A DNA stretch of 64,000 nucleotides from Gammaproteobacteria bacterium. Lineage in GTDB: Bacteria; Pseudomonadota; Gammaproteobacteria; Eutrophobiales; Eutrophobiaceae. The stretch lies in NCBI GenBank assembly GCA_965221695.1, contig OZ244905.1:2701384-2765383 (forward strand), read 5' to 3'. Positions 17,782 to 49,089 of the stretch are shown here, one piece after another (within the stretch, counting starts at the first letter, position 1; each line of letters begins with the position of its first letter). The translations under genes were made by a program, and so were the position numbers. The notes under the pieces are model-generated. The model worked only from the letters and a program-made list of their open reading frames with translations, had not been told where the DNA came from and ran no database searches.

Positions 17782-17828
17782 GATTTTGCTGATATATGCT
17801 GTGTAAATTTTACTAACTGTCCTGCACC

Positions 17829-25505: not shown

Positions 25506-28715
<3,210 letters not shown>

Positions 28716-28722
28716 CAACAAA

Positions 28723-29199: not shown

Positions 29200-29251
29200 C
29201 GTCACAGGGACGGTATGCGGCGCGCTTCCCGCGCGCTAATAATGTCGAGAT

Positions 29252-29866: not shown

Positions 29867-29902
29867 GAAAGCTTTGAACAAGTCCATCGTTGATCTGTCA
29901 GG
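29866..29902 (+). repeat. MITE-B fragment (degenerate first hairpin)
   Basis: aagaaagctttgaacaagtccatcgttgatctgtcagg lies directly after the rlmE stop. Confidence 0.55.
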
Positions 29903-29984
29903 TGATGCAAACAATGTAAGTGATAGGATGTATGCTGGCAGGCGCTCGTCCGTTTGTTGAGATAAAGCTCAGGCATAAGGCGTT

Positions 29985-31910: not shown

Positions 31911-31979
31911 AGTATAACCTCTCAGCCACGGAACAGGTTGTCCCGGGTTTTCTTGCCGCCAGCAACAATTCTCTATCGT

Positions 31980-36166: not shown

Positions 36167-36260
36167 TTCCGCAGCTTTGCCAACCGTTCTATGCGGTTGC
36201 CCTGCGCAGCGATGCAGGGATAATGTGCTGTACCGCATAATCAGCTACAATAACCAGCCC

Positions 36261-36347
36261 GGAGAGGTGCCAGAGTGGTTGAATGGGGCAGACTCGAAAT
36301 CTGTTGTACGCGTCAGCGTACCGTGGGTTCGAATCCCACCCTCTCCG
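36261..36347 (+). tRNA. tRNA-Ser (anticodon CGA)
   Basis: ggagaggtgccagagtggttgaatggg...gactCGAaatc..., a long variable arm (gtacgcgtcagcgtac), T arm gtgggttcgaatcccac, and an acceptor pairing GGAGAGG/CCTCTCC with discriminator G. No CCA is encoded. Confidence 0.9.
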
Positions 36348-36701
36348 TAACATTCATGCCACAGGCGCATCTGGCGCCTGTGGCATGAATGTTGATGCAA
36401 TGGGGTTCGAACCCACGGTAATTAAATACGGGTTCGACAAATTCGCTGGGAGCGAATTTGAACAGCGTAGCTGGCCCCGGAGGGGCAAACTACATGGATG
36501 TAGTTTGTAATCCCACCCTCTCCGTAACATTCATGGCACAGGCGCTTCTGTCGCCTGTGCCATGAATGTTGATGCAATGGGGTTCGAACCCACGGTAATT
36601 AAATACGGGTTCGACAAATTCGCTGGGAGCGAATTTGAACAGCGTAGCTGGCCCCGGAGGGGCAAACTACATGGATGTAGTTTGTAATCCCACCCTCTCC
36701 G
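36332..36701 (+). repeat. Two tandem 177-bp units, each bounded by the 16-nt tRNA-Ser 3' end (three copies: 36332, 36509, 36686)
   Basis: aatcccaccctctccg occurs three times with an exact 177-bp period. Each unit starts with a 20-bp-stem hairpin (36349-36393; 36526-36570). Confidence 0.9.
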
Positions 36702-36705
36702 CCAT

Positions 36706-37896
36706 CTAATAGTCCGGTAAAGTCCGGAGTCTTCCAAGCGCTTCAATGAAATGTGCTAGTGACAGGATGGTTGTGTCCTGGCTGCCGGGGAATGTATCTT
36801 CGCCAGTGTAAACAACAAATTTCTGTTTTACCTTTAAGTCTTCACAGGCCATGTGAAAGCCTTTTTTCAAGGTTGGAGTTCGGCTTGCTTTGATCTCAAC
36901 GGCCCAGTATTCATCAAGACCAAACTCAATTACCAAATCAATTTCTGCCCCAGCAGATGTGCGATAGAAAAACGGATGAGCGCTTGAAGGTAAGGCGTTA
37001 ATAATGGTCTCAATGACAAACCCCTCCCAGCTTTTTCCGAATATAGGATGCCCCAACAAAGCTTCATAATTCGGAATTTGCAGCAAGGCATGCACAAGAC
37101 CGCTATCGCGTACATAGGTACGTGGTGATTTCACCAGCCGTTTTTTGACGTTCCCATGCCAAGGCTCTAGCCTGCGAACCAATAACAAATCAACCATGAG
37201 GTCCAGATATCGACTAACGGTGACACTCTCTACGCCAAGAGAGCTTGCGAGTTTTGACGCGTTCAGTAGTTCACCTTGTGTATGGGCAAGCATGGTCCAA
37301 AAGCGCATCAAGGTCGTTGCTGGAATTCTTGGTCCTAGCTGAGGGATGTCTCGTTCCAGATAGGTGCGAATAAAATTCTGCCGCCACTGGTGACTGGCCG
37401 CATCATCTTCAGCGGCATAGCTGTCGGGAAACCCACCACGTATCCAGAGCTTTTGTAAGGGCTCTCCGGATGTTTCTTCAATTTCAAAAAGGTTTAAGCC
37501 AGTCAGTTCAGAGTAATGAATGCGGCCAGCAAGGCTCTCAGAGCTTTGTTTTAGCAACTCATTGGTTGCCGATCCTAAAACAAGAAAGCGTCCGTTTCCG
37601 CGCCCCTCACGACGTCTGGCATCAATGATTCCGCGCAGTGACATAAACAAATCAGGGTAGCGTTGGACCTCATCGAGAATGACCAGCTTATCTGCATGTA
37701 GTTCTAGATAGTGGGCAGGGTCTTTGAGCTTTTGGAAATCCTCTGGGTTCTCGAGATCCAAATAAACAGATGGTTGCCCTTTGGCGATCTCATGGGCAAG
37801 CGTTGTCTTGCCAATCTGGCGCGGGCCAAGAATGGCAACAGCCGGATTTTGACTGAGACTTTTGATGATTTTCTGTGTAAGCTCTCTTTCATACAT
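36706..37896 (-). CDS. AAA-family ATPase with C-terminal DUF4143-type domain
   Basis: MYERELTQKI...VAILGPRQIGKTTLAHEIA (Walker A), VILDEVQ (Walker B), about 396 aa. The track ORF extends to 37971. Confidence 0.75.
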   Translation of the reverse strand: MYERELTQKIIKSLSQNPAVAILGPRQIGKTTLAHEIAKGQPSVYLDLENPEDFQKLKDPAHYLELHADKLVILDEVQRYPDLFMSLRGIIDARRREGRGNGRFLVLGSATNELLKQSSESLAGRIHYSELTGLNLFEIEETSGEPLQKLWIRGGFPDSYAAEDDAASHQWRQNFIRTYLERDIPQLGPRIPATTLMRFWTMLAHTQGELLNASKLASSLGVESVTVSRYLDLMVDLLLVRRLEPWHGNVKKRLVKSPRTYVRDSGLVHALLQIPNYEALLGHPIFGKSWEGFVIETIINALPSSAHPFFYRTSAGAEIDLVIEFGLDEYWAVEIKASRTPTLKKGFHMACEDLKVKQKFVVYTGEDTFPGSQDTTILSLAHFIEALGRLRTLPDY

Positions 37897-38276
37897 GCTA
37901 GCAATACTAACACAAAATATTAAATATGCAAGGTAAATGTTTTTGTGGTGATCTGTTTCCAATGAAGGCAAAGCGGGATTAGAACCCGCGATACGGTACC
38001 GTGTTCACAACAAAAACCGGCGCTTGGCGAGGAAGGTGTACAGGCGGGTGGTGAACAAGTCGCCGGTACGGCGAACTTTGCGAGGCACAAACCTCTTATC
38101 ACCCAATGTAATTCGGTTTGTATAGTCCGCAACATCCGTAATTGGTTTTGAAAATCCTGTGTCTATGGACAACCCCCCCATACTTGATTAGCATAAGTCA
38201 TAAGGAGGACCTATCGTGAACGTTGATTTCGTGACAAAGCGCCAGTCTGACAATCTCATGCAAATGCCGACCATCC

Positions 38277-38684
38277 ATGTCCAGGATTCGTTGTTATAGT
38301 ATCGGTCGAGACCCCTCCGCATCCATCGTACTGCGTCATGAGACGGTGTCGCGCAGGCATGCAGAGTTGATTCCCGTATCCGGCGGGCAGGTATACGTCA
38401 CGGATTGCGCCAGCGCCTGCGGGACTTTCATCGATAAGGGCAGGCGCTGGGAGAGGCTTACCCAGGATTTCGTCGGCGCAGGCGGCAGGGTGCGTTTCGG
38501 CGAGGTTGAGGTCAGCGTGCAGAGTCTGCTGGCGGACATTGCCCGCTTGCCTGCCGGCGGTGGAACGGGTCCCGGCGGTTCGGCGGAGCCCGGCGGTACC
38601 CCAGGCGCCGATAAGAAGAAACATGTGGATGCCGGCCGCGGGGTCATGCGCGACCCGGAAACGGGCGAGCCGATTCCCATGTAA
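38277..38684 (+). CDS. Small FHA-domain protein with Gly/Pro-rich tail (operon gene 1)
   Basis: YSIGRDPSASIVLRHETVSRRHAEL...VTDCASACGTFI carries the FHA G-R...S-R-x-H...GT pattern. Confidence 0.75.
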   Translation: MSRIRCYSIGRDPSASIVLRHETVSRRHAELIPVSGGQVYVTDCASACGTFIDKGRRWERLTQDFVGAGGRVRFGEVEVSVQSLLADIARLPAGGGTGPGGSAEPGGTPGADKKKHVDAGRGVMRDPETGEPIPM

Positions 38685-38699
38685 TCGGACAGACAGACC

Positions 38700-39473
38700 A
38701 TGAACCAGAGAATGAGGATATTCATAGGGGCGCTGGGCGCGGGCGTGATCTTCATCGGCCTGCTCAGCCTGTTTTTCTCCGAAGGTTTCTTCGCCGACTT
38801 CCTGCTGGACCGGAATTCGAAGTTCATGCCCTACCCGGTCACGATACAGAATATCATGTGGCTGGTGTTCTTCATCGGGGCGGGAGAATTGCTGTCGCGC
38901 TACCTGCAGACGGACCGGGAAATCAGCCAGATCCGCCTGGGACTGTTGCCGGAGGACAGCACAACCCTATTGCGCAAGCAAGATCTGGGCGGCGTGTACC
39001 AGCGCGTCAAGGAAACCATGCACCCGGCGCCGGGCGCTGCGGAGGATTCCTATTTCCTGCAACGCCTGCTGTCCCGTTGTATCCTGCAGTTCCAGGTCAG
39101 CGGCGCCATTGATAAGGCAAACAACATGTTCAACTCCAGCCTGGAGTTGTTCCAGCACGAGGTCGAGCTGAGGTACAATGCCATTCGCTATATCGTCTGG
39201 CTGATCCCGACCCTGGGGTTCATCGGCACCGTGGTCGGCATCGCGCTGGCGCTCAGCAACGCCGGCAGCGTCGACAACTTCCAGGACCCCACCTTGCTGA
39301 AACAGCTTACCCAGAGTCTCGGCGTAGCGTTCTTTACCACCTTGCTGGCCTTGCTGCAATCCGCGGCGCTGATGTTCGCGCTGCATGTCGTACAAGGACA
39401 GGAGGAAGCGTCGCTGAACCGGATAGGGCAGTATTGCCTGGATAACCTGATTAACCGGTTGTACGAGACTTGA
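38700..39473 (+). CDS. MotA/TolQ/ExbB-family proton-channel-like membrane protein (operon gene 2)
   Basis: Predicted TM helices are present. The C-terminal block IPTLGFIGTVVGIALAL...LGVAFFTTLLALLQSAALMF matches the MotA_ExbB signature PxLGxxGTVxG...AxxTTxxGL. Confidence 0.7.
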   Translation: MNQRMRIFIGALGAGVIFIGLLSLFFSEGFFADFLLDRNSKFMPYPVTIQNIMWLVFFIGAGELLSRYLQTDREISQIRLGLLPEDSTTLLRKQDLGGVYQRVKETMHPAPGAAEDSYFLQRLLSRCILQFQVSGAIDKANNMFNSSLELFQHEVELRYNAIRYIVWLIPTLGFIGTVVGIALALSNAGSVDNFQDPTLLKQLTQSLGVAFFTTLLALLQSAALMFALHVVQGQEEASLNRIGQYCLDNLINRLYET

Positions 39474-39715
39474 TGGGGGTCGCCTGCGCGAGACAAATCG
39501 GCAGGACAGCCGATTTGCGCAGCGACTGCTGCCCGCAGGGTTGTATCCAGGGAAGGATGCAATGAGTGACGGAAGGAGAGAGGAATGACGGGTGGGTTCA
39601 AGAATGACGGTTAAGGGGCGAAGGGAGGTGTCGGCAAGTGGGTGTCGGCAAGTTGAACGCAGGGTGGTTTTCTGTTAAATTTTCATCAACCGCAACACCA
39701 GAAGGGGAGGACATC

Positions 39716-40375
39716 ATGCCGGTAAAACGCGATGCGGACGGGAACATCATAAAGGAACAGACAAGAACTACCGGAGTGGGTGATCCGGTGTTGCCGACCT
39801 TGGGGCGCTCCACTGTCGGCGCCACGGTCGGCCCCGGCAGGTCTCCCGAGACCAACCCCGGCCAGTCATCGGGTTATGAGGCCCAGACGGTGCTGGCAGG
39901 TTCGCCCCGTGTCGCGGAAGGGGAAGCCAGGACCCGGATCTACCGGCCCGGCAGGACGGGGCGGCAACAGCCGGAGACACCGGCTCCAGGTACGGGCGCT
40001 GAGGACGCGACGTCCTCTGCCATGGACGACCCGCCCGTAGGCTGGCTGGTCGTCGTCAGTGGGCCGGGACAGGGGAACTACATGGCCGTCGGCAACGGTT
40101 CGAATTCAGTCGGACGCGATGAGCGCGAGCGAGTGCGCGTGGATTTCGGTGACGAGTTGATCTCCCGCAGCGACCATTCAACGATCACCTACGATCCCAG
40201 GGGTAAGAAGTTTTACCTGCAGCACGGCGCCGGAAAAAACCTCACTTACCTGGAAGGCAAACCTGTCCTGGCGCCGACCGAACTGCCCGGGTTTTCCCGG
40301 ATCACGATTGGGAACACCGAATTGCTGTTCATCCCGCTCTGTTGCGATCAGTTTGACTGGGACGACTACACGTAA
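39716..40375 (+). CDS. FHA-domain protein with Thr/Pro/Gly-rich disordered N-terminus (operon gene 3)
   Basis: The ATG at 39716 is preceded by gaaggggagga. The C-terminus reads GWLVVVSGPGQGNYMAVGNGSNSVGRD...ISRSDHSTITYD...NLTYLEGKPV...ITIGNTELLF. Confidence 0.8.
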   Translation: MPVKRDADGNIIKEQTRTTGVGDPVLPTLGRSTVGATVGPGRSPETNPGQSSGYEAQTVLAGSPRVAEGEARTRIYRPGRTGRQQPETPAPGTGAEDATSSAMDDPPVGWLVVVSGPGQGNYMAVGNGSNSVGRDERERVRVDFGDELISRSDHSTITYDPRGKKFYLQHGAGKNLTYLEGKPVLAPTELPGFSRITIGNTELLFIPLCCDQFDWDDYT

Positions 40376-40384
40376 CAGGTCGTT

Positions 40385-41368
40385 ATGAATGCCCTCAAGC
40401 AGTGGGTGTCGGGAGAGCAGATCCAGGGAGACCGAAATTACCAGGAAGACTATTTCTCGCTCAGCCTGCTTTCCCAGGGCCGGGAACCTCCGGATGAAGA
40501 CTGCCTGCTGCTCGTGCTGGCCGACGGCATGGGCGGACATGCCGGCGGCGCCGTTGCCAGCGAGACGGTAGTCAAGGCATTCCAGGAGGGCTTCAACCGC
40601 GATGCAACCGGGATCGCAGAGCGTTTCAGCGCCGGCATCGACACCGCCAACAACGCCGTCAGGGAAAAACAACAGGCCGATCCGGAACTGTCCGAGATGG
40701 GTTGCACCCTGGTGGCCGCGCTGGTGGTCGGGTCGACCCTTTACTGGACCAGCGTCGGCGATTCCATACTGTGGCTGTGCCGGCAGGGACATTTGCAGAG
40801 ATTGAATGCGGACCATTCCATGAAACCGCTGTTGCTGGACCTGGTCGAATTGGGCAGGATGACCGAAGAAGAGGCGCTGAGCGATTACCGGATCAACCAG
40901 CTACGCTCGGCCATTTTCGGCGAGGAGGTTCAGCTGATTGACATGAACGCGGACGGTTTCCAACTGGAGAGTGGTGATCTCGTTTTACTGGCCAGCGACG
41001 GCCTGGAAACCCTGTCCGGGCAAAGCATGACAGATGTCATCGAGGCCCGCGCGGACGATGCCGATGAGATAGTGAACGCCCTGCTTGACGCAGTTGCCAT
41101 GGCGGGGGTGCGCGGGCAGGACAATACTACGGCGCTGGCGTACCGGGTCGGCCAGGGGCATGATTCACTGCACGGCGTACTGGCGGGCATCAGCACAGAT
41201 GACAAGGATGCCGTATTCGAGCAGCAAGTGAAACCCTCCCGAACCTGCGAGTTGCGCCCGGCACAGGAACAGGAAGCGCCGGCAAAGCGGCCCGGCATCT
41301 TCGCCCGAGCCATACATGCCTTCTCCGGTAGACCGGCGCGTCAAGACACTCGTGACGGGAAGCAATGA
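40385..41368 (+). CDS. PP2C-family Ser/Thr protein phosphatase (operon gene 4)
   Basis: RNYQEDY, LADGMGGHAGG, LASDGL and GQDNTTA motifs. Confidence 0.85.
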   Translation: MNALKQWVSGEQIQGDRNYQEDYFSLSLLSQGREPPDEDCLLLVLADGMGGHAGGAVASETVVKAFQEGFNRDATGIAERFSAGIDTANNAVREKQQADPELSEMGCTLVAALVVGSTLYWTSVGDSILWLCRQGHLQRLNADHSMKPLLLDLVELGRMTEEEALSDYRINQLRSAIFGEEVQLIDMNADGFQLESGDLVLLASDGLETLSGQSMTDVIEARADDADEIVNALLDAVAMAGVRGQDNTTALAYRVGQGHDSLHGVLAGISTDDKDAVFEQQVKPSRTCELRPAQEQEAPAKRPGIFARAIHAFSGRPARQDTRDGKQ

Positions 41369-43104
41369 CAGCAATACGAGCATTGATGTTGTGTGCGCTT
41401 CTGGTGTACCTGCCGGCAGGCAACAGCCAGACGACCGGTGATGACGCAGAAGCGCCGGCTGTTTCCTCTGCCACTGCACCCGCTGTGCCTGCTGATACGC
41501 CCGTGACAACGGAGGACCCAGCGCAAATAGCCGCCCCCTCAGCGGATACAGCCACGGCGATTGCCGCGGTTGTGCAGGTTCCCGAACCCGTAGATTTCAG
41601 TGCGGTGCGGCCCCACCTGGTGGTCATAAGAGAAGGGATGGACGCCGCCGCACGTCGCACGCCGGGATTCAGCATCAGCGACCAGGGCCATATCCTGACT
41701 TATTCCGGAGAATTACGCGCCCGGGAGTACTACCTTGTCTCGGTTGCAGGCGGTCAGGTCTTTACTGCTGCGCTGCTTGATGAAGATGAAGACACCGGCC
41801 TCATGCTACTGAGGATCGCAGGAGAAGGGCACGGCCTCACCGCCCTGAAGTTTGCCAGAACGACGCTGGAAGCCGCGGTGCCGCTCTATGCAGTACGGTT
41901 CGACCCGGTGCGGGCGGAGCCGTTCGTGCCCGTTCCCGGCACGGTCACGCGGTTGCCTGCAACGGATGAGGAGACACCGGCAATCGTGCATAATGCCCTG
42001 TTCAATACGGCGGCCGCCGGGACGCCCTTGTTCAACCGTTGTTACCAGGCGGTCGGTGTCAGCGTGCTGCAAAGGAAGGGCTTCCCGCCGAGAACTCTCG
42101 ATCCCCAACAACAGGGTAGCGCCATCTCCCTGGCGGCCTACTCGTTGAGCGTGATCCTGGCGTCGGCCAACCTGACCCTGCCCATCGCTGAGGCGGAGTG
42201 CCAGAGTGCGGAGGAGGAGGCGCGACTGCGGCTGGAACAACTTCAGCAGGAAAAAGAGGCGGAGCGGGCAAATGCCGAAGCCCTGGCCCTTGCCGCCGCG
42301 GAGGAAGCGCTGCGCAGGGAGGCGGTAATGAACCTGGAGCGGGAAGCAGCGCAACAGCAGCTTGAACAGGCGCGCCAAGAGAAAGAAGCGGCCCTGCAGG
42401 CGGAGCGGGCAAGTGCCGAAGCCGATAAGCGCCGTTTGGAAGAAGAAGCGCAGCAACAACTTGAACAGGCGCAGCAGGAGAAGGAACAGGCCCTGCAGGC
42501 ACAACAGCAGGAGAATGAACAGGCTCTGCAGGTGGAGCGGCAGGAGACCGAACAGGCCCGGCGGGAAGCCCGGCAGGCGACGCATACGGGGAAACAGATC
42601 CTGCTGTTATCGCTAGCGGTCGTCTTCGTCCTGGCGCTGGTCTTCTTCCTGGTCCTGCGCGCCAGGCGTAAACACCTGCAACGCGTGGAACAGGAAAAAC
42701 AGCAGTTCGCCCAGGACCTGGACAGGGCAGAGGCAGACCTGTCAGACGCCTCCGAGAGGGAGCAGCTACGCGCCGGCGCCCCCGACGTGTTTATCGAGGG
42801 TGTCACGCCGCAGAACGAGCGCATCGCCCTGAAAATACCCGGCGCCTCACTGGTCAAACCCTCAGGTGTCACGGTAGGCAGGAGTCCCTCCGAATCCGAG
42901 TTCGTCATCAATCACGAACAGGTCTCCCGCCGCCATTTCCGCCTCATGCTGGTGTCTGGGCAGGTGATGATCGAAGATATGGGCTCGACCAATGGGACCG
43001 TCGTGAACGGCGTGCCCCTCAGTCCCGGCGCCCGGCAGACGCTGGGCGACGGCAGCCGCATGCAGGTCGGGCGCGTGACGATGACGGTGCGGATAGGTCT
43101 CTGA
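41365..43104 (+). CDS. Bitopic membrane protein: signal peptide, trypsin-like (apparently inactive) periplasmic domain, repetitive coiled coil, TM helix, cytoplasmic FHA domain (operon gene 5)
   Basis: Signal MTAIRALMLCALLVYLPAGNSQ. The HtrA-like layout (GFSISDQGHILTY...DTGLMLLRI...AAAGTPLF) lacks an obvious His or Ser. QQLEQAxQEKExALQA repeats follow, then TM ILLLSLAVVFVLALVFFLVL. The FHA region reads VTVGRSPSESEFVINHEQVSRRHFRL...STNGTVVNG. Confidence 0.65.
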   Translation: MTAIRALMLCALLVYLPAGNSQTTGDDAEAPAVSSATAPAVPADTPVTTEDPAQIAAPSADTATAIAAVVQVPEPVDFSAVRPHLVVIREGMDAAARRTPGFSISDQGHILTYSGELRAREYYLVSVAGGQVFTAALLDEDEDTGLMLLRIAGEGHGLTALKFARTTLEAAVPLYAVRFDPVRAEPFVPVPGTVTRLPATDEETPAIVHNALFNTAAAGTPLFNRCYQAVGVSVLQRKGFPPRTLDPQQQGSAISLAAYSLSVILASANLTLPIAEAECQSAEEEARLRLEQLQQEKEAERANAEALALAAAEEALRREAVMNLEREAAQQQLEQARQEKEAALQAERASAEADKRRLEEEAQQQLEQAQQEKEQALQAQQQENEQALQVERQETEQARREARQATHTGKQILLLSLAVVFVLALVFFLVLRARRKHLQRVEQEKQQFAQDLDRAEADLSDASEREQLRAGAPDVFIEGVTPQNERIALKIPGASLVKPSGVTVGRSPSESEFVINHEQVSRRHFRLMLVSGQVMIEDMGSTNGTVVNGVPLSPGARQTLGDGSRMQVGRVTMTVRIGL

Positions 43105-43818
43105 ATGAACCGTTCATTGTGGTGCGGTTTGATATTTCTCAGCCTCTGGGGTCTGAGTTACCAGGGTGGCGCGGATATTGATGACCAGGAAGAACATTTC
43201 AGGGAGGAGCAGGGGGCGCAACAGGATCAGGAAGCCGCGCGACGGGAACGCAAGCGTGCCCGACAGGCAGAACAGGAGGCGCTCCGGCAACAGGAAGCGG
43301 CGCGCCAGCGCGTGGTTCAGCAAAATCTGTTCGTAACCTTGCTGGCTCTGTTGACCCTGCTGGCCTTGATACTGGCCTTGAGAAAACCCCGGCAGGCCAT
43401 TGTTTGGGCCGCCGGCCACGCAATCGAACCACTCAGTCGGCGCTTCAAACCGGCAGGGCGCTTGCCCGCGCCGGGCGCAGCCCGCGCCGGGACGGCAAAC
43501 GTCGTACTTACGGGCTTTGACAGCCGGGGCAAACCGGTGAATATCCCGTTGCCGGAGGAGGAACTGGATCGGAAACGGGGCGGTTTCACCCTGGGGCGCC
43601 ATCACCTGCTGGTCGATACGGCGCTGGACGATGACCGGATATCGAAGCGCCATGCCCGGTTCACCCGCAACGGTCACGGCTATTTTATCGAAGACCTCAA
43701 TTCGAGAAACGGCACTGTGATCAACGGTGAGCAACCCTGCGCGCCGTTCAAACCCATGCGAATCAGGCCCGGCGACACGGTGCGGCTAGGCGGCATGGAG
43801 TTGCTCGTATCGGCCTGA
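43105..43818 (+). CDS. Membrane-anchored FHA-domain protein (operon gene 6)
   Basis: N-terminal hydrophobic segment, a charged E/Q/R-rich stretch, TM LFVTLLALLTLLALILAL, and a C-terminal FHA (FTLGRHHLLVDTALDDDRISKRHARF...SRNGTVING). The ATG abuts the gene 5 stop. Confidence 0.75.
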   Translation: MNRSLWCGLIFLSLWGLSYQGGADIDDQEEHFREEQGAQQDQEAARRERKRARQAEQEALRQQEAARQRVVQQNLFVTLLALLTLLALILALRKPRQAIVWAAGHAIEPLSRRFKPAGRLPAPGAARAGTANVVLTGFDSRGKPVNIPLPEEELDRKRGGFTLGRHHLLVDTALDDDRISKRHARFTRNGHGYFIEDLNSRNGTVINGEQPCAPFKPMRIRPGDTVRLGGMELLVSA

Positions 43819-43831
43819 TTCGGAAGCGCCC

Positions 43832-44635
43832 GTGAGGCTACGCAGCAAGGAGATCAATGTCTTCAACATGTCCGCGCTGGACCTGTTCGCCTCCGCGCTG
43901 GGTGCGTTTATCCTTATTTCCGTGGTCTTGTTTCCCTATTTTCCCAACACCGGCGATTCCCAGGAACGGGTGGACGAGGTCAAGGCGCAACTGGCTGAGG
44001 CCAATGCGCGATTGGAGGAAACCAGCGCCGAACTGGAGCAGGTCCGCGCCCGGTTGAACCCCGCCCTGGAACAAGAACTGCAGGTCGCACGAGAACAACT
44101 CGGCGCGTGCCAGGCCCGACTCCGGGAGGCAGAGGCCGCGCTAAACGCCTGCCAGGTTGAACAGCGAGAAGTTGCATCATTGGATTCCGCGCTGGGCGCC
44201 TGCGAGAACCGCAACCGGCAGATGCAACAGGAACTGCAATCCTGCGAGAATGAATTGCGCAAGAAATTCGTGCTGGTCGTGATCAGCTGGGGCACGCCGG
44301 ACGATATCGACCTGCACGTGATCGATCCGCAAGGCCGGGAGTTCTTCTACGGGCGCAAACACATCCCCGGTTCCCTGGCAAAACTGGAAGAGGACAACAC
44401 CAGAGGTCCCGGCAATGAGATCTGGCTGCACCCGGCCGCGGAGCCGGGCGCCTACGAGGTTTACTACAAATATTACGATGGATCAACCGGCAACGTGCAG
44501 GTGCGCGGCGCGGCGCTGACGCCCCGCGGCAGGACGGAGTTGCCGGACATCACTCTGCGGTACGTGGGTGAGAAGCCCCTGGTGGCAACCATTTTCGTCA
44601 ATGAGGATGGCAACGCTGAGGTGAGGGCATGGTAA
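43832..44635 (+). CDS. Bitopic protein with MotB/ExbD/TolR-like Asp-containing TM helix, Cys-bearing coiled coil and C-terminal DUF2135 (YfaP)-like domain (operon gene 7)
   Basis: N-terminus MRLRSKEINVFNMSALDLFASALGAFILISVVLF (compare TolR SEINIVPLLDVLLVLLLIF and MotB ADFMTAMMAFFLV). The coiled coil has four xAC(Q/E)/SCE motifs. The C-terminus reads VISWGTPDDIDLHVIDPQGREFFYG...EEDNTRGPGNEIW...PGAYEVYYKYY. Confidence 0.6.
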   Translation: MRLRSKEINVFNMSALDLFASALGAFILISVVLFPYFPNTGDSQERVDEVKAQLAEANARLEETSAELEQVRARLNPALEQELQVAREQLGACQARLREAEAALNACQVEQREVASLDSALGACENRNRQMQQELQSCENELRKKFVLVVISWGTPDDIDLHVIDPQGREFFYGRKHIPGSLAKLEEDNTRGPGNEIWLHPAAEPGAYEVYYKYYDGSTGNVQVRGAALTPRGRTELPDITLRYVGEKPLVATIFVNEDGNAEVRAW

Positions 44636-44660
44636 CGCGGCGGGAGGGGAATTTTCCGCA

Positions 44661-44690
44661 TTGACACGATTTCCCAGGCCCCCTTAGAAT
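44661..44690 (+). promoter_or_regulatory. Sigma-70-like promoter candidate upstream of the kinase gene
   Basis: TTGACA (44661-44666), an 18-nt spacer, then TAGAAT (44685-44690). A perfect 9-bp inverted repeat, ccggtgaca-N11-tgtcaccgg, follows at 44700-44728. Confidence 0.4.
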
Positions 44691-44766
44691 ACGGTTTAAC
44701 CGGTGACACAATTTAATTCTGTCACCGGATTTACGGGGCAAACATAACAAACAAAGACGGCCTTCC

Positions 44767-47373
44767 ATGAACTCCGACCACCTGCATGCCCTACCGCCCG
44801 GCACGCGCCTTGAAGAATTTCGGCTGGAGGCGCAGGTGGGCGCCGGCGGGTTCAGCATCACCTATCGGGCCTATGACGAATTACTGGACAAGGTGGTGGC
44901 CGTCAAGGAATACCTGCCGCGGGATTTCGCCACCCGCACCGCCGGCAATACAGTGGCGCCCATATCCGATGCGGACGCCCGGGATTACCAGTGGGGCCTG
45001 ACCCGGTTCCTGGACGAGGCCCGCACGCTGGCCAGGTTCGACCATCCGCATCTCAACAAGGTGCGTCGTTTCTTCGAGGCCAACGGCACGGCCTACATGG
45101 CGCTGGAGCATATCCATGGCGAGACCCTGGCTACCCGGTTAAGCCGCGAGCGGCGCTTGCCGGAAACGGACCTGCTGCGCCTGCTGGAGGAAGTGTTATC
45201 GGGACTTGCTGTGATTCACGAGGCTGGCTACGTGCACCGGGACATCAAACCGGGCAACCTGATGCTGCGCGAGGAAGACGACAGCATAGTGCTGCTGGAC
45301 TTCGGCGCCGCGCGCCAGGCAGTGGGCCAGAGTTCCAAGTCAATCACCAGCATCCTGACACCGGGCTATGCCCCGATAGAGCAGTACGAAAGCAAAGCGG
45401 ACGCCGTCGGACCGTGGAGTGATATCTATGCATTGGGGATGGTGGCGTACAAGTGCATCAGCGGCGCGGGTGACGGGGAGTTGCCCGATGCCGTGACCCG
45501 GGCCCGCTCCCAACGCAAAGGGGGTAAGGACCTGGCGATGGCGGCGGAGGTGGGCCAGAGCAGGTACAGTGCGAAGCTGCTGGCGGCGATAGACTGGGCC
45601 ATCGAGGTGGATGAGGAGTCCCGGCCGCAGGGGGTGGGTGAGTGGAGTGAGGCGCTGGTGGGGAGCGGGAGCAAGCAACGAGCCGCCAAACCGGCGCCTA
45701 ATACAACGGCACGGTCTGCAAAGGCTCCGGCCACCGAGCGCCAGGGTATGAATTGGTACAGCATGGCCCTGACCGCGGTGATAGTGGTGTTACTGGGAGC
45801 GAGCGCCTGGCAGGGCTGGCGGCTGTATCAGGGGATGCCCGGGCTTGGCGTAGACGGCGCCGCCACGGCAGTTGAGTCGCAGGCAAACGCACAGGGCAAA
45901 GCAGAGTTAGCAGCAGAACCCTATGCACAAACACCAACGGTAACGCCAGAACAAGGCTCCGGGCCTGACGCGCCCACACTGGCCGCGCCGGTTGAGGAAG
46001 ACGAAGTCGCCCGGCTGCTGGCTGCAGCCGAAGCCGACTTGGAGGCAAGACGCCTGACCAGTCCGCAGGGGAACAACGCCTGGGAGAAGTACCGGCGGGT
46101 ATTGGGTTTATCCTCCGCGCACCCCGAGGCCATAGCGGGGATGGAGCGGGTGATCGGGAGTTACATGGACCTGTTCGGCGCTGTTCTGGAGCAGGAGGAT
46201 TTTGACCAGGCGGAGGGGTATCTCTCACGCATCCGCGACCTGCACCCGGATTCGCCACTCTTGTTGACGGGGAAAGAACGTTTGGAACAAGCCCGGCAGG
46301 CTCATGTCGAGCGGTTGGCGGAAGAAGAGCGCCTGCGCCAGGCCGAGGAAGCGGCGCGCCAGGCGGAACAGGAGCGCCAGCGAATAGCACAGGAAATCGA
46401 GAGACACTGGCAGTCCTTTGAGACGGCAATGCAGCAAGACAAATTGGACCGGGCGGAAGACAGTCTCAACCTCGTGCGGGAGTTGGACTCGGACGCGCCG
46501 GGGTTAGCGGATGCGGAACGACGCCTGTCACAGGCGCGGGAAGCATCCCGGCAGAAGGCGCTGCAGTATGCCGGTGAGATGGTCTCCATCCCTGCCGGCA
46601 GTTTCCGCATGGGGGACCTGACAGGCGCTGACGCTGAGAAACCGGTCCACAGTGTGCGAGTCGCGGCCTTCAGCATGGGCAAGTATGAGGTAACGGTGGG
46701 CCAGTTCCAGCGGTTTGTGGAGGCGACGGGGTACCTCACGGATGCGGAGCGTTATACGGACGGCAAAGCAGGTTGTTCTGTCTATACAACAAAAAGATGG
46801 AAGTACACCGAGGGCAAGAGTTGGCGCAATCCGGGGTTTTCAGTCGGAGACAAGCACCCGGTGGTGTGCGTGAACTGGAATGATGTGCAGGCGTTCGTGA
46901 AGTGGCTGAACGGCAATACCGATGGGGATTTCCGCTTGCCGACCGAGGCGGAGTGGGAGTATGCGGTGCGCGCCGGGAGCAGTACGAAGTATCATTTCGG
47001 CAATGATGAGTCACAACTGTGCCGGTTTGCCAGCCATGCGGACAGCGGGACGGATATTGATTGGAAAAACAAGTCCTGCTCGGACGGTGTGGGCGAACGC
47101 ACCGCCGAAGTGGGCCGTTACCAGCCGAACAGTTTCGGGCTGTATGACATGCACGGCAATGTCTGGGAGTGGGTGACAGATTGCTGGAATGAGAGTTATG
47201 TGGGCGCCCCGACAGACGGTAGCGCCTGGACGAATGGGGACTGCAGCCGGCGCGTCATTCGGGGCGGGGCCTGGGACAGCTCACCGTGGAACCTGCGTTC
47301 CGCGCACCGTTACGGGAGCTCCCGTTCGAATCACAGCTCTTATCTGGGCTTTCGCTTGGCCCGGGACAACTGA
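44767..47373 (+). CDS. Transmembrane Ser/Thr protein kinase fused to a C-terminal FGE-sulfatase (SUMF1/formylglycine-generating enzyme family) domain (operon gene 8)
   Basis: Kinase motifs GAGGFSITY, VAVKEY, HRDIKPGNLML, DFGAAR and TPGYAPIEQY. TM WYSMALTAVIVVLLGASAW. A helical/coiled periplasmic linker follows. The FGE domain reads MVSIPAGSFRMGD...FRLPTEAEWEYAVRAG...GLYDMHGNVWEWV...RVIRGGAWDS...LRSAHR. Confidence 0.85.
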   Translation: MNSDHLHALPPGTRLEEFRLEAQVGAGGFSITYRAYDELLDKVVAVKEYLPRDFATRTAGNTVAPISDADARDYQWGLTRFLDEARTLARFDHPHLNKVRRFFEANGTAYMALEHIHGETLATRLSRERRLPETDLLRLLEEVLSGLAVIHEAGYVHRDIKPGNLMLREEDDSIVLLDFGAARQAVGQSSKSITSILTPGYAPIEQYESKADAVGPWSDIYALGMVAYKCISGAGDGELPDAVTRARSQRKGGKDLAMAAEVGQSRYSAKLLAAIDWAIEVDEESRPQGVGEWSEALVGSGSKQRAAKPAPNTTARSAKAPATERQGMNWYSMALTAVIVVLLGASAWQGWRLYQGMPGLGVDGAATAVESQANAQGKAELAAEPYAQTPTVTPEQGSGPDAPTLAAPVEEDEVARLLAAAEADLEARRLTSPQGNNAWEKYRRVLGLSSAHPEAIAGMERVIGSYMDLFGAVLEQEDFDQAEGYLSRIRDLHPDSPLLLTGKERLEQARQAHVERLAEEERLRQAEEAARQAEQERQRIAQEIERHWQSFETAMQQDKLDRAEDSLNLVRELDSDAPGLADAERRLSQAREASRQKALQYAGEMVSIPAGSFRMGDLTGADAEKPVHSVRVAAFSMGKYEVTVGQFQRFVEATGYLTDAERYTDGKAGCSVYTTKRWKYTEGKSWRNPGFSVGDKHPVVCVNWNDVQAFVKWLNGNTDGDFRLPTEAEWEYAVRAGSSTKYHFGNDESQLCRFASHADSGTDIDWKNKSCSDGVGERTAEVGRYQPNSFGLYDMHGNVWEWVTDCWNESYVGAPTDGSAWTNGDCSRRVIRGGAWDSSPWNLRSAHRYGSSRSNHSSYLGFRLARDN

Positions 47374-47463
47374 AACGAAGGCATTATAAAGACTCTATAC
47401 ACAGGACTATCCGGCTGGATTCCCTTTTCCCCTTCTATCTCATCGGCAATCGCCTGGCGAACT

Positions 47464-49089
47464 TCACCGCATCGATTTTTGCAGTACCGAGAAGTTTCTT
47501 ACCCAAGGCTCTAGTTTGCGTATTTCATCGGGCAAATCATCTATAGCTCTTTCGGCAAGCTCATAGTCATGGTACAGACCATAAAACACGCGATAGTAAG
47601 TTATCTGCTCGATCTCGATCCTGATATAGGCAATCTGCTGTGTCAGGTTATTCTGTTTGAGGAAATTTAGCACACGTTCTTCACTGGAAAAGCTGGCCAG
47701 TTGCAAAGTGTAGTGATACGGAGATTGTGCGGCGACCCAGTCTTCCCGCCTGATAGCGGTCTCACCGGCGTCAGAGGCATCCTCGCCAGCCAACTCATCT
47801 TCATCGGAAATGACCTCGCTGGTGGTCGCAACCAGATCGGAAATGGCCTCTGGTACAGCCGCAATGTATTCCGCTGTCGCTGGTACAGGGCTGGTGTCCG
47901 CGGTCTCTGCAACAGTCTCCGGCGTTTCCTCCTCCGCGGCGTTCAGCGCGATCTCGGCGGTGTCCTCATCCGTCTGAGCAGCTACGATGGTCGGCGTTTC
48001 TTCGACAGCAGGCGCTGTGTCTTCTGCTTCAGTTGCCTCAGCAGCAGTTTGAGCAAGGCTGGTCTCCGCGGTCTCTGCAACGATCTCCGGCGCTTCCTTC
48101 TCCGCATCGAACAGTGCGGTCTCGGCTGTGTCTTCGTCCGACTGAGCGGCTATGGTCGGCGCTTCCTCCTGCGTGACGCTCAGTGCGGTCTCGGCAGCGT
48201 CCTCATCCGGCTGAGCAGCTATAATCGGTGTTTCCTCGACGGCAGGTACCGTATCTTCTTCAGTTGCCTGCGCAAAGGGTTCTGTTGTTTCCTGCATTGC
48301 AGGCGCTTGCGATACGGTCGTGTCCTCTTCAATATCGACATAAGCAAGTCTTTGTAAGCTTTCTTCTGCCTGTTGCAGACCCCCGGCGGCCGCGCGTTGA
48401 TACCATTTTTTCGCCTCCACCAGGTCCTTTTCTACCGCGTAACCATTTTCATAGTACACGCCCATGTTGAATTGCGCCTGTGGGACATCGGCGTCAGCGG
48501 CTTTTCTGAACCAGAGTAGCGCTACATCATAGTCCTGGTCGACGCTGTAACCGAAGGCGTACATGACAGCCAGGCTGTATTGCGCATTTCCGTTTCCCTG
48601 CTCTGCTGCTTGGCGGAAAAGCCGGGTGGCTGTTTCATAATCCCGGGTAATCTGCTCACTGCCGTTGAAGTACAAAAGGCCAAGGTTGAACAGCGCATCC
48701 GATTGCCCGGCCGCCGCGGCCAGCTTCCACCATTGCATGACTTTAGACGGGTCTTTTGTGACACCATCACCGTGCAAGTACTTGACGCCGAGCTCGAATT
48801 GGGCGTCGGGGTGCCCTTGATCCGCCGCAAGCAAGTACCATTTTACTGCTTCGGCAGAATCTGCGTTAACGCCATGGCCATAGTCATACATGAGGCCAAG
48901 CATTCTTTGCGCATCCGAGTTGCCGTCCTCAGCCAGTGGTTGCAGTATTTCGTAGGCTTTTTCGTAGTCTTTGGCCAGGTAGGCCTGTCTCGCCGTTTCA
49001 AAAGATTGCGCCAGCACAGGGCCGGAAAATACCAACCCCAATAACAGGAAAGGAATTAACTTGGTCAGCATAAACCGTATCTTTGACAT
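47464..49089 (-). CDS. Exported Sel1-repeat protein with acidic repetitive linker and C-terminal SPOR domain
   Basis: Signal-like N-terminus, about five Sel1 repeats (DAQxxLGxxYxxGxGVxxDxxxAxxWY), an E/T/A/D-rich repeat region, and the C-terminal YTLQLASFSSEERVLNFL...YYRVFYGLY. Confidence 0.75.
   Translation of the reverse strand: MSKIRFMLTKLIPFLLLGLVFSGPVLAQSFETARQAYLAKDYEKAYEILQPLAEDGNSDAQRMLGLMYDYGHGVNADSAEAVKWYLLAADQGHPDAQFELGVKYLHGDGVTKDPSKVMQWWKLAAAAGQSDALFNLGLLYFNGSEQITRDYETATRLFRQAAEQGNGNAQYSLAVMYAFGYSVDQDYDVALLWFRKAADADVPQAQFNMGVYYENGYAVEKDLVEAKKWYQRAAAGGLQQAEESLQRLAYVDIEEDTTVSQAPAMQETTEPFAQATEEDTVPAVEETPIIAAQPDEDAAETALSVTQEEAPTIAAQSDEDTAETALFDAEKEAPEIVAETAETSLAQTAAEATEAEDTAPAVEETPTIVAAQTDEDTAEIALNAAEEETPETVAETADTSPVPATAEYIAAVPEAISDLVATTSEVISDEDELAGEDASDAGETAIRREDWVAAQSPYHYTLQLASFSSEERVLNFLKQNNLTQQIAYIRIEIEQITYYRVFYGLYHDYELAERAIDDLPDEIRKLEPWVRNFSVLQKSMR

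What the first reader, a model, noticed from the sequence alone, without database searches (positions are those of the whole stretch)
36261..49089. The signalling-motor operon sits in a tRNA-Ser-proximal accessory segment without an integrase
Synteny up to serA-DUF1015-tRNA-Ser is housekeeping. Directly after the att-like repeats come a DUF4143 AAA ATPase (a family often seen in mobile or accessory contexts), a ~380-bp non-coding gap, the 8-gene operon and a convergent Sel1/SPOR gene.

This placement suggests horizontal acquisition at the tRNA. I found no integrase and no fourth copy of the 16-nt att core between 36.7 and 49.3 kb, so the right boundary is undefined. Whether the ATPase or the Sel1/SPOR protein belongs functionally to the operon is open.
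Basis: inference. Interest (0 to 1): 0.45.

Follow-up and report, generated by a model that had tools for sequence, protein, structure and literature searches.

The report
Composite variable region downstream of tRNA-Ser
The stretch after tRNA-Ser is not one island: it is a small recently inserted ATPase gene next to an older, species-fixed signalling operon, both at a site that differs in every related species.

Summary
The segment has four parts with different histories.

1. Repeats (36348-36701): 177-nt tandem repeats derived from the tRNA 3' end, present as 1 or 2 copies among conspecific strains.

2. ATPase cassette (36702-38155): 1,454 bp carrying only the DUF4143/AAA_14 ATPase, with foreign composition. 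It starts exactly after the third repeat core and is absent from three conspecific assemblies, which are true empty sites.

3. The 8-gene operon (38277-47373): present with its own promoter in all five conspecific assemblies that cover the site. Its tetranucleotide signature is host-like. It belongs to a widespread FHA / TolQ-ExbB-like / PP2C / protease / kinase gene neighbourhood found in many different contexts.

4. Sel1/SPOR: an unrelated, fast-diverging neighbour.

In nine related species, synteny stops at DUF1015/tRNA-Ser and is followed by nine different contents, including toxin-antitoxin, restriction, GmrSD and IS elements. The site is therefore a hotspot.

Recent insertion at the tRNA-derived core is shown only for the ATPase. 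The operon is older and has no detectable right-hand att site or integrase.

In a sister lineage the operon's kinase is an active target of a diversity-generating retroelement (DGR). Here the homologous region has no DGR in the window and is invariant among strains.

The parts
36260..36348 (+). tRNA-Ser (anticodon CGA). Its last 16 nt (36332-36347) are the repeat core.
   Evidence: ARAGORN; Rfam tRNA 58.6 bits. The same tRNA follows DUF1015 in L001, L003, L005, L006, L092 and L173.
36348..36701 (+). Two tandem 177-nt units. Each ends in the tRNA 3'-end core AATCCCACCCTCTCCG (copies at 36509 and 36686). Each contains a perfect 19-20-bp hairpin, an antisense copy of the tRNA T-arm, and two further palindromes. 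Copy number varies between strains (1 or 2).
   Evidence: the repeat finder D3/D7 and I5-I10. Core counts in conspecific loci: L081 and L090 have one unit; L091, L088 and the window have two. The unit was not found outside this species, neither in the 172 loci then held nor in viral contigs.
36702..38155 (-). Strain-specific 1,454-bp insertion (the ATPase cassette). The left end lies exactly after core copy 3. The right end lies at a 6-bp microhomology (CCTGTG, 38156-38161). It replaces 29 nt (TAACATTCATGGCACAGGCGCATCTGGCG) that are present in the empty-site strains.
   Evidence: Alignment with L081; BLAST breakpoints at 36701 and 38156 for L081, L090 and L091; sequences. The same insertion is in L088. 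GC 0.47, tetranucleotide z = 2.7, r = 0.36.
36706..37971 (-). AAA_14 + DUF4143 ATPase. The likely true start is near 37895.
   Evidence: Pfam DUF4143 1.9e-46 and AAA_14 1.9e-25. PADLOC candidate family PDC-S01, 3.1e-95. 376 plasmid records hold homologues, all but one below 60% identity. No match in the PDB by sequence or in viral contigs.
37973..38004 (-). tRNA-like T-arm / variable-arm fragment inside the cassette, just upstream of the ATPase gene and on the same strand as it.
   Evidence: Weak Rfam hit to a family that is essentially antisense tRNA-Ser (19.1 bits, E 0.93). The stem GCGGG-TTCTAAT-CCCGC is seen. Tentative.
38166..38194 (+). Promoter-like site (TGGACA-17-TAGCAT) for the operon. 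It lies to the right of the cassette junction, in sequence shared with the empty-site strains.
   Evidence: Consensus scan; conserved in L081, L090 and L091. A consensus match only.
38277..38684 (+). Operon gene 1: small cytoplasmic FHA protein.
   Evidence: Pfam FHA 3.2e-13.
38700..39473 (+). Operon gene 2: TolQ/ExbB/MotA-like proton-channel subunit with 3 transmembrane (TM) segments.
   Evidence: Pfam MotA_ExbB 1.1e-10. AlphaFold model pLDDT 84.7. The top Foldseek PDB hits are almost all TolQ, ExbB, MotA or ZorA, prob 1.00, TM 0.35-0.64. More than 2,300 homologues.
39638..40375 (+). Operon gene 3: FHA protein.
   Evidence: Pfam FHA 4.4e-06.
40385..41368 (+). Operon gene 4: PP2C Ser/Thr phosphatase.
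   Evidence: Pfam PP2C_2 2.7e-13; NCBIfam Stp1_PP2C 7.4e-41, below cut-off.
41365..43104 (+). Operon gene 5: signal peptide, trypsin-like domain, Q/E/A-rich coiled coil, TM segment, C-terminal FHA.
   Evidence: Pfam Trypsin_2 3.1e-06 and FHA 2e-16; hydrophobic segments at 1-19 and 412-430.
43105..43818 (+). Operon gene 6: membrane-anchored FHA protein.
   Evidence: Pfam FHA 3.2e-17; TM 74-92.
43832..44635 (+). Operon gene 7: N-terminal TM segment containing an Asp, then a coiled coil and a C-terminal beta-rich domain. Candidate MotB/ExbD/ZorB-like partner of gene 2.
   Evidence: TM 11-29 (FNMSALDLFASALGAFILI). Weak ZorB N-terminal match, E 3.8e-4. In distant variants this gene directly follows the MotA-like gene. 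Inference.
44767..47373 (+). Operon gene 8: Hanks-type Ser/Thr kinase, TM segment, periplasmic region, FGE-sulfatase (C-type-lectin fold) domain.
   Evidence: Pfam Pkinase 1.7e-31 and FGE-sulfatase 1.1e-67; TM 330-348.
47250..47362 (+). Region homologous to the DGR variable region (VR) of the sister-lineage kinases. No cognate template was found in the window, and the region is invariant in three strains.
   Evidence: BLAST to the L083 template repeat gives 15 mismatches at template adenines and 14 elsewhere. The last 259 nt of the gene are identical in the window, L090 and L091. No RT or Avd was found in the window.
47464..49089 (-). Convergent Sel1-repeat / acidic linker / SPOR protein. Not part of the operon family.
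   Evidence: Pfam Sel1 6.7e-47 and SPOR 1.8e-12. Not seen in this convergent downstream position in the other operon loci. Only 83-87% nt identity to L090 and L091, against 98-99% for the operon.

Best explanation
The segment is a composite that sits at a long-standing variable site downstream of tRNA-Ser(CGA).

1. **Repeats.** The tRNA 3' end has been duplicated into 177-nt tandem units. These are scars of earlier recombination at the tRNA, now expanding and contracting by unequal crossing-over (inferred).

2. **ATPase cassette.** A foreign element entered at the third core copy. Later an internal deletion ending at a CCTGTG microhomology removed most of it. What remains is a 1.45-kb relic carrying a single DUF4143/AAA_14 ATPase gene and no integrase. 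The insertion and its borders are shown. The deletion scenario is inferred.

3. **Operon.** The 8-gene operon was already in place. It has its own promoter to the right of the junction, is fixed in the species and is compositionally native.

The operon belongs to a widespread family that sits in different places in different genomes, so its arrival here predates the species. It may have come by transfer or by relocation.

**How the operon most likely works (inferred from domains and topology).**
- A periplasmic C-type-lectin domain on the kinase binds a ligand.
- The cytoplasmic Hanks kinase then phosphorylates threonines, which are read by five FHA domains.
- Two of the FHA proteins are membrane-anchored, and one of these carries a periplasmic trypsin-like protease.
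- The FHA proteins couple the signal to a TolQ/ExbB-like proton-driven motor and its single-TM partner.
- The PP2C phosphatase resets the system.

The ATPase and Sel1/SPOR are bystanders.
For: **Empty sites**
- L081, L090 and L091 are about 98% identical to the window outside the divergent 28.0-33.3 kb block and the Sel1/SPOR gene.
- They join the core plus 29 nt directly to CCTGTGTCTATGG..., the operon leader.
- Their DUF1015-to-FHA gaps are 509, 509 and 686 bp.
- L088 carries the cassette, as the window does.

**Composition**
- ATPase region: tetranucleotide z = 2.7, r = 0.36. This matches the toxin-antitoxin islet at 14-18 kb.
- Operon: r 0.80-0.90 and z from -0.01 to 2.4. The peak falls on the coiled-coil repeats.
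- GC3 is 0.45 for the ATPase, 0.70-0.82 for operon genes and 0.61-0.70 for the housekeeping genes.
- The operon's GC follows the host's in 12 other loci. It exceeds the upstream flank by 4-5.5 points in four of them.

**Hotspot**
- Nine species each have different content after DUF1015/tRNA-Ser.
- In L001 and L092, AT-rich DNA starts immediately after the tRNA.

**Operon as an independent unit**
- The same eight genes, 57-92% identical, sit in four other contexts: L083, L085, L086 and L087.
- Dozens of the 80 metagenome loci carry variants of it.

**Motor and topology**
- The gene 2 fold matches TolQ/ExbB/MotA/ZorA.

**Mobility genes**
- No integrase and no fourth core copy were found (and the Pfam calls).
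Against: - The relic-of-an-island story for the cassette rests on one exact border, one microhomology and a 51-codon open frame running off the right border. That frame has no detectable homologue.
- The tRNA-like fragment inside the cassette is a weak match (E 0.93).
- Whether the operon came by transfer or by rearrangement cannot be decided. I could not link the operon-bearing contigs of other species to their housekeeping genes, so operon divergence and core divergence could not be compared in the same genomes.
- The operon GC is about 5 points above its flanks. Taken alone, that would fit a foreign origin.
- One other operon locus (L095) also lies about 450 bp downstream of a tRNA-Ser, with anticodon TGA. 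This may hint at a real association with tRNA-Ser genes.
- The functional model is based on domains only.
Confidence: 0.7

Rival explanations
1. The whole 36.3-49.1 kb stretch is one genomic island captured at tRNA-Ser by a tyrosine integrase that was later lost.
For: - The segment lies next to the tRNA and has triplicated tRNA 3'-end cores.
- Synteny with all related species ends at this point.
- Operon GC is 0.616 against about 0.56-0.58 in the flanks.
- Defence-type cargo follows the same tRNA in L001 and L092.
Against: - The ATPase varies in presence independently of the operon within the species.
- The two parts have opposite compositional deviations, GC3 0.45 against 0.70-0.82.
- All core copies lie to the left of both parts, and there is none to the right in 27 kb.
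- The operon's tetranucleotide signature is host-like.
- The operon's GC offset also appears in several other hosts.
- Sel1/SPOR does not travel with the operon elsewhere.
Confidence: 0.1
2. The operon is ancestral, vertically inherited core DNA of this lineage. Only its neighbours change, through rearrangement and hotspot turnover next to the tRNA.
For: - Its oligonucleotide signature is native.
- Homologue identities form a smooth gradient (99, 92, 91, 90, 87, 86, 83 ... 55%) across more than 2,300 proteins.
- Operon protein identity to L083 (68-92%) is in the same range as housekeeping identity to the nearest species (77-94%).
- The operon is fixed in all conspecific assemblies.
Against: - None of nine related species has it at this site within 10 kb.
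- The four closest non-conspecific operons each have different flanks.
- It was not possible to show that the related genomes carry the operon at all.
Confidence: 0.3
3. The ATPase insertion and the varying repeat number are assembly artefacts of metagenome-assembled genomes.
For: - All the sequences are MAG or metagenome contigs.
- L089 breaks inside the repeat array.
- L088 has only about 2x coverage, judging by its record name.
Against: - The cassette has identical junctions in the window and in L088, which is a separate contig record.
- The empty site is identical in three contigs from two samples, including Mb-scale contigs at 25x coverage.
- The junctions are clean and lie at a repeat core.
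Confidence: 0.05

Closest known systems
tRNA-linked genomic islands and integration hotspots (textbook; own knowledge)
   Same: The region sits immediately 3' of a tRNA gene. The tRNA 3' end is duplicated as direct repeats. The cargo is strain-variable and compositionally foreign (the ATPase). Different defence, toxin-antitoxin or IS cargo follows the same tRNA in sister species.
   Different: There is no integrase and no flanking attR. All core copies lie on one side. The cargo of the variable part is a single gene of 1.45 kb. The large operon next to it is not variable within the species and is not compositionally foreign.
DGR-diversified Ser/Thr kinase-C-type-lectin variable proteins (Wu et al. 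2018, PMC5758913, category b12; Vallota-Eastman et al. 2020, PMC7517822)
   Same: The kinase has the same architecture, with a kinase domain N-terminal to an FGE-sulfatase/CLec domain. In the sister lineage (L082-L084) a 115-nt template matches the C-terminal variable regions of three such kinases, with 10-22 mismatches, essentially all at template adenines. bAvd and RT genes lie directly downstream.
   Different: The 64-kb window has no RT, Avd or template. The VR-like stretch is identical in three strains. The described cases are mostly cyanobacterial. I found no paper describing the kinase embedded in this FHA / PP2C / TolQ-like operon.
Threonine-phosphorylation modules built from a Hanks kinase, a PP2C phosphatase and FHA proteins, such as PpkA-PppA-Fha1 of the Pseudomonas H1-T6SS or PknB-PstP-FhaA/B of actinobacteria (own knowledge)
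   Same: A membrane kinase with an extracytoplasmic sensor domain, a PP2C phosphatase and FHA-domain phosphothreonine readers are encoded together.
   Different: No type VI secretion or cell-wall synthesis genes are present. There are five FHA domains, a periplasmic trypsin-like protease and a TolQ/ExbB-like channel instead.
Proton-driven 5:2 motors: TolQR, ExbBD, MotAB and the anti-phage ZorAB
   Same: Gene 2 has the MotA_ExbB domain and the TolQ/ExbB fold. Gene 7 has a single N-terminal TM segment containing an Asp and a long coiled coil, reminiscent of ZorB or of the ZorA tail.
   Different: Gene 7 has no OmpA-like or peptidoglycan-binding domain. There is no ZorC/D, TonB or TolA partner. 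The PADLOC and NCBIfam Zor hits are far below family level (E 7.5e-6 and 9.4e-4). The motor is here linked to Ser/Thr phospho-signalling.

Membership tests
Integrase-mediated tRNA genomic island | Lies directly 3' of a tRNA gene | tested here: met
   The tRNA ends at 36348. The repeats start at once and the cassette starts at 36702.
Integrase-mediated tRNA genomic island | Direct repeats of the tRNA 3' end on BOTH sides of the inserted DNA (attL and attR) | tested here: not met
   The three cores at 36332, 36509 and 36686 all lie to the left of the ATPase and the operon. There is no other copy in the 64 kb with up to 3 mismatches.
Integrase-mediated tRNA genomic island | Encodes a site-specific recombinase | tested here: not met
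   No recombinase Pfam hit in any ORF of at least 100 aa in the window.
Integrase-mediated tRNA genomic island | Presence/absence polymorphism among close relatives, with an identifiable empty site | tested here: met
   Met for the ATPase cassette only: L081, L090 and L091 are empty, while the window and L088 are occupied. For the operon, differences are seen only between species.
Integrase-mediated tRNA genomic island | Composition differs from that of the host | tested here: inconclusive
   Clear for the ATPase (z = 2.7, r = 0.36). For the operon the signature is host-like (r 0.80-0.90), and its +5 GC points recur in several other hosts of this operon family.
DGR variable protein | C-terminal C-type-lectin/FGE-sulfatase domain ending in a VR-type sequence | tested here: met
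   FGE-sulfatase 1.1e-67. Positions 47250-47362 align with the VRs and the template of L083.
DGR variable protein | A cognate template repeat that differs from the VR only at adenines | tested here: not met
   No second copy in the window. Against the L083 template there are 14 non-adenine mismatches. The rest of the genome could not be searched.
DGR variable protein | Reverse transcriptase and Avd accessory gene | tested here: not met
   tblastn with the L083 RT/bAvd and the L087 bAvd found nothing in the window. Both genes are present directly downstream of the operon in L082-L084, and bAvd is in L087.
DGR variable protein | VR differs between closely related genomes | tested here: not met
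   The last 259 nt of the gene are identical in the window, L090 and L091. By contrast, the VRs differ among the co-occurring haplotypes L082, L083 and L084.
TolQ/ExbB/MotA/ZorA 5:2 motor family (gene 2) | MotA_ExbB domain and fold | tested here: met
   Pfam 1.1e-10, above cut-off. Foldseek prob 1.00 to TolQ, ExbB, MotA and ZorA.
TolQ/ExbB/MotA/ZorA 5:2 motor family (gene 2) | Partner protein with one TM segment carrying the protonatable Asp | tested here: inconclusive
   Gene 7 has a TM segment at 11-29 containing an Asp and a weak ZorB N-terminal match, E 3.8e-4. It is adjacent to the MotA-like gene in distant variants. No structure or complex model was made.
Zorya anti-phage system | ZorA and ZorB at family level plus ZorC/D or ZorE | tested here: not met
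   Only weak partial hits (ZorA2 7.5e-6; NCBIfam ZorA_4 18 bits against a 500-bit cut-off). No ZorC/D/E hits.
PADLOC candidate PDC-S01 (the ATPase) | Match to the family HMM | tested here: met
   PDLC04790, 3.1e-95. This is a candidate family. No defence function has been tested here or, to my knowledge, elsewhere.
Kinase / PP2C / FHA threonine-phosphorylation module | Hanks kinase, PP2C phosphatase and FHA reader encoded together | tested here: met
   Pkinase 1.7e-31, PP2C_2 2.7e-13, and five FHA domains from 4.4e-06 to 3.2e-17.

The most novel reading that the evidence does not exclude
The FHA / TolQ-ExbB-like / PP2C / periplasmic protease / kinase-lectin operon may be an undescribed envelope surveillance system.

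In this reading, a ligand-binding lectin on a Ser/Thr kinase gates a proton-powered motor and a protease through phosphothreonine-FHA links. In some lineages that lectin is reprogrammed by a DGR acting on several paralogous kinases at once. This would be a Zorya-like or receptor-like sensing device for phage, host or neighbour recognition.

In the window's species the receptor would have been frozen after loss of the DGR.
Probability: 0.25. Interest if true: 0.7.

Novelty: new member of a known kind. Interest (0 to 1): 0.38.

Why it matters
**For the question asked.** The result separates a real, recent, tRNA-core-targeted insertion (one orphan ATPase gene) from a much older resident operon. 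It also shows that the site after tRNA-Ser(CGA) is a turnover hotspot across a whole group of uncultured Gammaproteobacteria. That is ordinary island biology, but it is now documented with real empty sites.

**The more interesting by-product.** The operon is a conserved, widespread and, as far as I could find, undescribed signalling cassette. Its sensor kinase is actively hypermutated by a DGR in a sister lineage. This gives natural DGR-plus and DGR-minus versions of the same system for comparison.

Tried and rejected
- **Sel1/SPOR homologue search, meant to find the right boundary.** Repeat-driven hits dominated. The best full-length match is only 36% identical and no orthologue in a close relative could be identified, so the right boundary stays undefined.
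- **Weak Sel1 and TonB-receptor matches downstream in L003 and L005.** At 28-45% identity they are at paralogue level, and I rejected them as synteny.
- **The 51-codon open frame at the cassette's right end.** No Pfam or plasmid match, so the 'truncated gene' remains a guess.
- **Linking the L083 genome to its DUF1015 locus through P0178.** This returned a different genome, which still served as one more hotspot example.
- **Viral contig scans** for the 177-nt unit, the ATPase and the MotA-like protein all found nothing.
- **PDB sequence searches** for the MotA-like protein and the ATPase found no match. The search for gene 7 returned only insignificant coiled-coil matches.
- **Literature searches** for the operon's domain combination found only the known kinase-lectin DGR targets and unrelated papers.
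- **A fuzzy-regex VR search timed out.** I replaced it with BLAST.
- **GC skew** shows no discontinuity at the segment borders beyond the strand switch at Sel1/SPOR.
Full report
**1. What is in the sequence**

- ARAGORN finds one tRNA in the window: tRNA-Ser(CGA) at 36260-36348.
- Its last 16 nt, AATCCCACCCTCTCCG, recur exactly at 36509 and 36686. These mark the ends of two 177-nt tandem units that are 95% identical to each other.
- There is no further copy anywhere in the 64 kb, even with three mismatches.
- Each unit holds a perfect 19-20-bp hairpin, an antisense copy of the tRNA T-arm, and two more palindromes.
- Five bases after the third core lies the stop codon of a minus-strand AAA_14/DUF4143 ATPase, 36706-37971.

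Eight co-directional genes follow, with short or no spacers:

| Gene | Coordinates | Product |
|---|---|---|
| 1 | 38277-38684 | FHA |
| 2 | 38700-39473 | MotA/ExbB-like |
| 3 | 39638-40375 | FHA |
| 4 | 40385-41368 | PP2C |
| 5 | 41365-43104 | trypsin-like, coiled coil, FHA |
| 6 | 43105-43818 | FHA |
| 7 | 43832-44635 | coiled-coil protein |
| 8 | 44767-47373 | Ser/Thr kinase fused to an FGE-sulfatase domain |

- A convergent Sel1/SPOR gene lies at 47464-49089.
- Upstream is a housekeeping block, carA/B-greA-ftsJ-ftsH-glmM-serA-DUF1015.
- Downstream is a catabolic cluster: racemases, TonB-dependent receptors, a PQQ dehydrogenase and an MFS transporter.
- No ORF of at least 100 aa in the window hits a recombinase family.

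**2. Relatives of other species**

I scanned one genome per species with the DUF1015 protein. This returned six Gammaproteobacteria MAGs, L001-L006, with DUF1015 70-81% identical.
- All six keep carB...ftsH-glmM-serA-DUF1015.
- Four of them also keep tRNA-Ser(CGA).
- Nothing downstream matches the window, apart from paralogue-level Sel1 and TonB-receptor hits.

Two more species came from protein look-ups: L092 (83% identical) and L173 (72%). A further locus, L095, came from the metagenome scan. It carries the operon next to a different tRNA-Ser and is discussed in section 5.

The content after DUF1015/tRNA-Ser differs in every species:

| Locus | Content after DUF1015/tRNA-Ser |
|---|---|
| L001 | AbiEi/AbiEii, Fic |
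| L002 | RTX protein |
| L003 | low-GC dehydrogenase, RelE |
| L004 | Eco57I-type restriction-modification enzyme |
| L005 | MFS transporter, 5'-nucleotidase, sulfatase |
| L006 | 3,263-aa ORF with GC 0.66 |
| L092 | GmrSD, SLFN/AlbA_2, IS, group II intron |
| L173 | unknown proteins, AAA_15 ATPase, transposases |

In L001 and L092, AT-rich DNA starts right at the tRNA end.

The site is a synteny break and a turnover hotspot.

**3. Conspecific assemblies give real empty sites, but only for the ATPase**

Look-ups by protein identity found five contigs of the same species.
- L088 is identical to the window and carries the ATPase.
- L089 breaks inside the repeat array.
- L081, L090 (a 3.5-Mb contig) and L091 (679 kb) are about 98% identical to the window outside the divergent 28.0-33.3 kb block and the Sel1/SPOR gene.
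- These three go from DUF1015 to the first FHA gene in 509, 509 and 686 bp, with no ATPase.

The junctions are as follows.
- Empty-site strains read: core, then TAACATTCATGGCACAGGCGCATCTGGCG, then CCTGTGTCTATGGACAACC...
- The window reads: core, then 1,454 bp (36702-38155), then CCTGTGTCTATGGACAACC...
- The left border is therefore exactly the end of the tRNA-derived core.
- The right border is a 6-bp microhomology, and 29 nt of a partial repeat unit are missing.
- Repeat number is 1 in L081 and L090, and 2 in L091, L088 and the window.
- A promoter-like site at 38166-38194 lies to the right of the junction, so the operon keeps its own upstream region.

**4. Composition**

*ATPase*
- The gene has GC 0.466 and GC3 0.448. 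Neighbouring housekeeping genes have GC3 of 0.61-0.70.
- Its 2-kb window lies 2.7 sd from the window-wide tetranucleotide profile, with r = 0.36.
- That is the same order as a toxin-antitoxin islet at 14-18 kb, which has z of 2.4-3.6.

*Operon*
- It has GC 0.616 and GC3 0.70-0.82.
- Its tetranucleotide correlation is 0.80-0.90, no different from the flanks.
- The only z above 2 falls on the Q/E/A-rich coiled-coil repeats at 41-43 kb.
- In 12 other loci carrying the operon, operon GC follows host GC from 0.44 to 0.69. It exceeds the upstream flank by 4-5.5 points in four of them.

The ATPase is clearly foreign. The operon is not distinguishable as recent foreign DNA.

**5. The operon is an independent, widespread unit**

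- The MotA-like protein has more than 2,300 homologues, with a smooth identity gradient of 99, 92, 91, 90, 87, 86, 83 ... 55%.
- The same eight genes, 57-92% identical, occur with four different sets of flanks in L083, L085, L086 and L087.
- A metagenome scan returned 80 loci. Dozens of them carry recognisable variants of the FHA / MotA-like / FHA / PP2C ... coiled-coil / kinase neighbourhood.
- In the more distant variants the coiled-coil gene directly follows the MotA-like gene.
- None of these loci has the ATPase next to the operon. None shows a Sel1/SPOR gene in the convergent downstream position seen here.
- Of 28 non-conspecific loci scanned, only L095 has a tRNA. Curiously it is a tRNA-Ser(TGA), about 450 bp upstream of the first gene. 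This may be chance.
- Neither the operon nor the ATPase was found on viral contigs.

**6. How the operon probably works (inference from domains and topology)**

- The kinase has a cytoplasmic Hanks domain, one TM segment and a periplasmic FGE-sulfatase (C-type-lectin) domain.
- The trypsin-like protein has a signal peptide, a periplasmic protease domain, a TM segment and a cytoplasmic FHA domain.
- Gene 6 is a membrane-anchored FHA protein.
- Genes 1 and 3 and the PP2C phosphatase are cytoplasmic.
- Gene 2 folds as TolQ/ExbB/MotA/ZorA: pLDDT 84.7, with almost all top Foldseek hits from that family at probability 1.00.
- Gene 7 has an N-terminal TM segment containing an Asp and a weak ZorB N-terminal match.

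The likeliest reading runs as follows. The lectin domain binds a ligand. The kinase then phosphorylates threonines, and the FHA proteins couple that signal to a proton-driven motor and a periplasmic protease. The PP2C phosphatase resets the system.

It is not Zorya. There is no ZorC/D and the Zor hits are only weak.

**7. An unexpected link to diversity-generating retroelements (DGRs)**

- In L082-L084, three co-occurring haplotypes of a sister lineage, bAvd and RT genes follow the operon.
- One 115-nt template repeat matches the C-terminal ends of three kinase-lectin paralogues, including the operon kinase.
- In eight of the nine template-VR pairs there are 10-22 mismatches at template adenines and 0-1 elsewhere.
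- The ninth pair, the third paralogue in L082, has 20 adenine-site mismatches and 6 other differences, including indels.
- The variable regions differ among the three haplotypes.
- L087 also has bAvd after the kinase.

In the window the situation is different.
- The homologous stretch, 47250-47362, has as many non-adenine as adenine differences from that template.
- No RT, Avd or template is present in the 64 kb.
- The stretch is identical in the window, L090 and L091.

Kinase-lectin DGR targets are known from surveys (PMC5758913, PMC7517822). I found no description of them embedded in this operon.

**8. Verdict**

- The ATPase is a recent, foreign, strain-variable insertion at the tRNA-derived core. 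It is most simply the relic of a larger element.
- The operon is an older resident of a hotspot. It is fixed in the species and compositionally native, with no attR or integrase. Its mode of arrival is unresolved.
- Neither the ATPase nor Sel1/SPOR belongs to the operon.

As an island finding this is ordinary. The conserved operon family and its DGR link are the parts that deserve follow-up.

Noticed in passing
L082-L084 (for example L083: VRs at 2411-2525, 9097-9211 and 18643-18758; template 20329-20443; bAvd 18897-19250; RT 19254-20336). Window counterpart at 47250-47362.: In a sister lineage the operon is followed by a DGR. One template targets three kinase-lectin paralogues with adenine-only changes, and the VRs differ among three co-occurring haplotypes. 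The window's kinase keeps a VR-like end, but no DGR is in the window and that end is invariant among strains.
   Followed up: yes
window 28000-33300: Against the ATPase-less strains (L081, L090, L091), identity drops from about 98% to 73-88% across greA-ftsJ-ftsH-glmM only, then returns to 98-99% from serA onwards. This looks like a 5.3-kb homologous-recombination import of housekeeping genes from another species into one of the two strain clades.
   Followed up: partly
window 47464-49089: The Sel1/SPOR gene is only 83-87% identical between strain clades and differs in length (541 against 561 aa). The adjacent kinase gene is 98-99% identical. This gives a sharp divergence step at the operon's right end.
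   Followed up: partly
window ~13000-17800: A low-GC islet (GC 0.44-0.52, tetranucleotide z up to 3.6) with an NYN-domain protein, two Phd/YefM antitoxin-like genes, DUF5615 and a UDG-like gene. It sits between dapB and a 1,463-aa Lhr-type helicase and is a second accessory patch in the window.
   Followed up: partly
window 38216-38299: A 27-codon ORF (GTG start, strong AAGGAGGA Shine-Dalgarno 7 nt upstream) overlaps the start of the first FHA gene in another frame. It is conserved with two amino-acid changes in L081, L090 and L091. It may be a leader peptide.
   Followed up: no
window 36401-36420, 36578-36597 and 37973-38004: Antisense tRNA T-arm-like fragments occur inside each 177-nt unit and again just upstream of the ATPase gene. 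A 51-codon open frame on the minus strand runs off the cassette's right border (about 38005-38155) and has no detectable homologue.
   Followed up: partly
L095 2343-2430: A distant copy of the operon (MotA-like protein 63% identical) also lies about 450 bp downstream of a tRNA-Ser, here with anticodon TGA. It is the only tRNA found in 28 other operon loci.
   Followed up: no
L088 versus window 31500-32500: L088 is 100% identical to the window everywhere except about 1 kb at the ftsH-glmM junction and the start of glmM (86-88% identity, with indels). This is either a short recombination tract or errors in a 2x-coverage contig.
   Followed up: no
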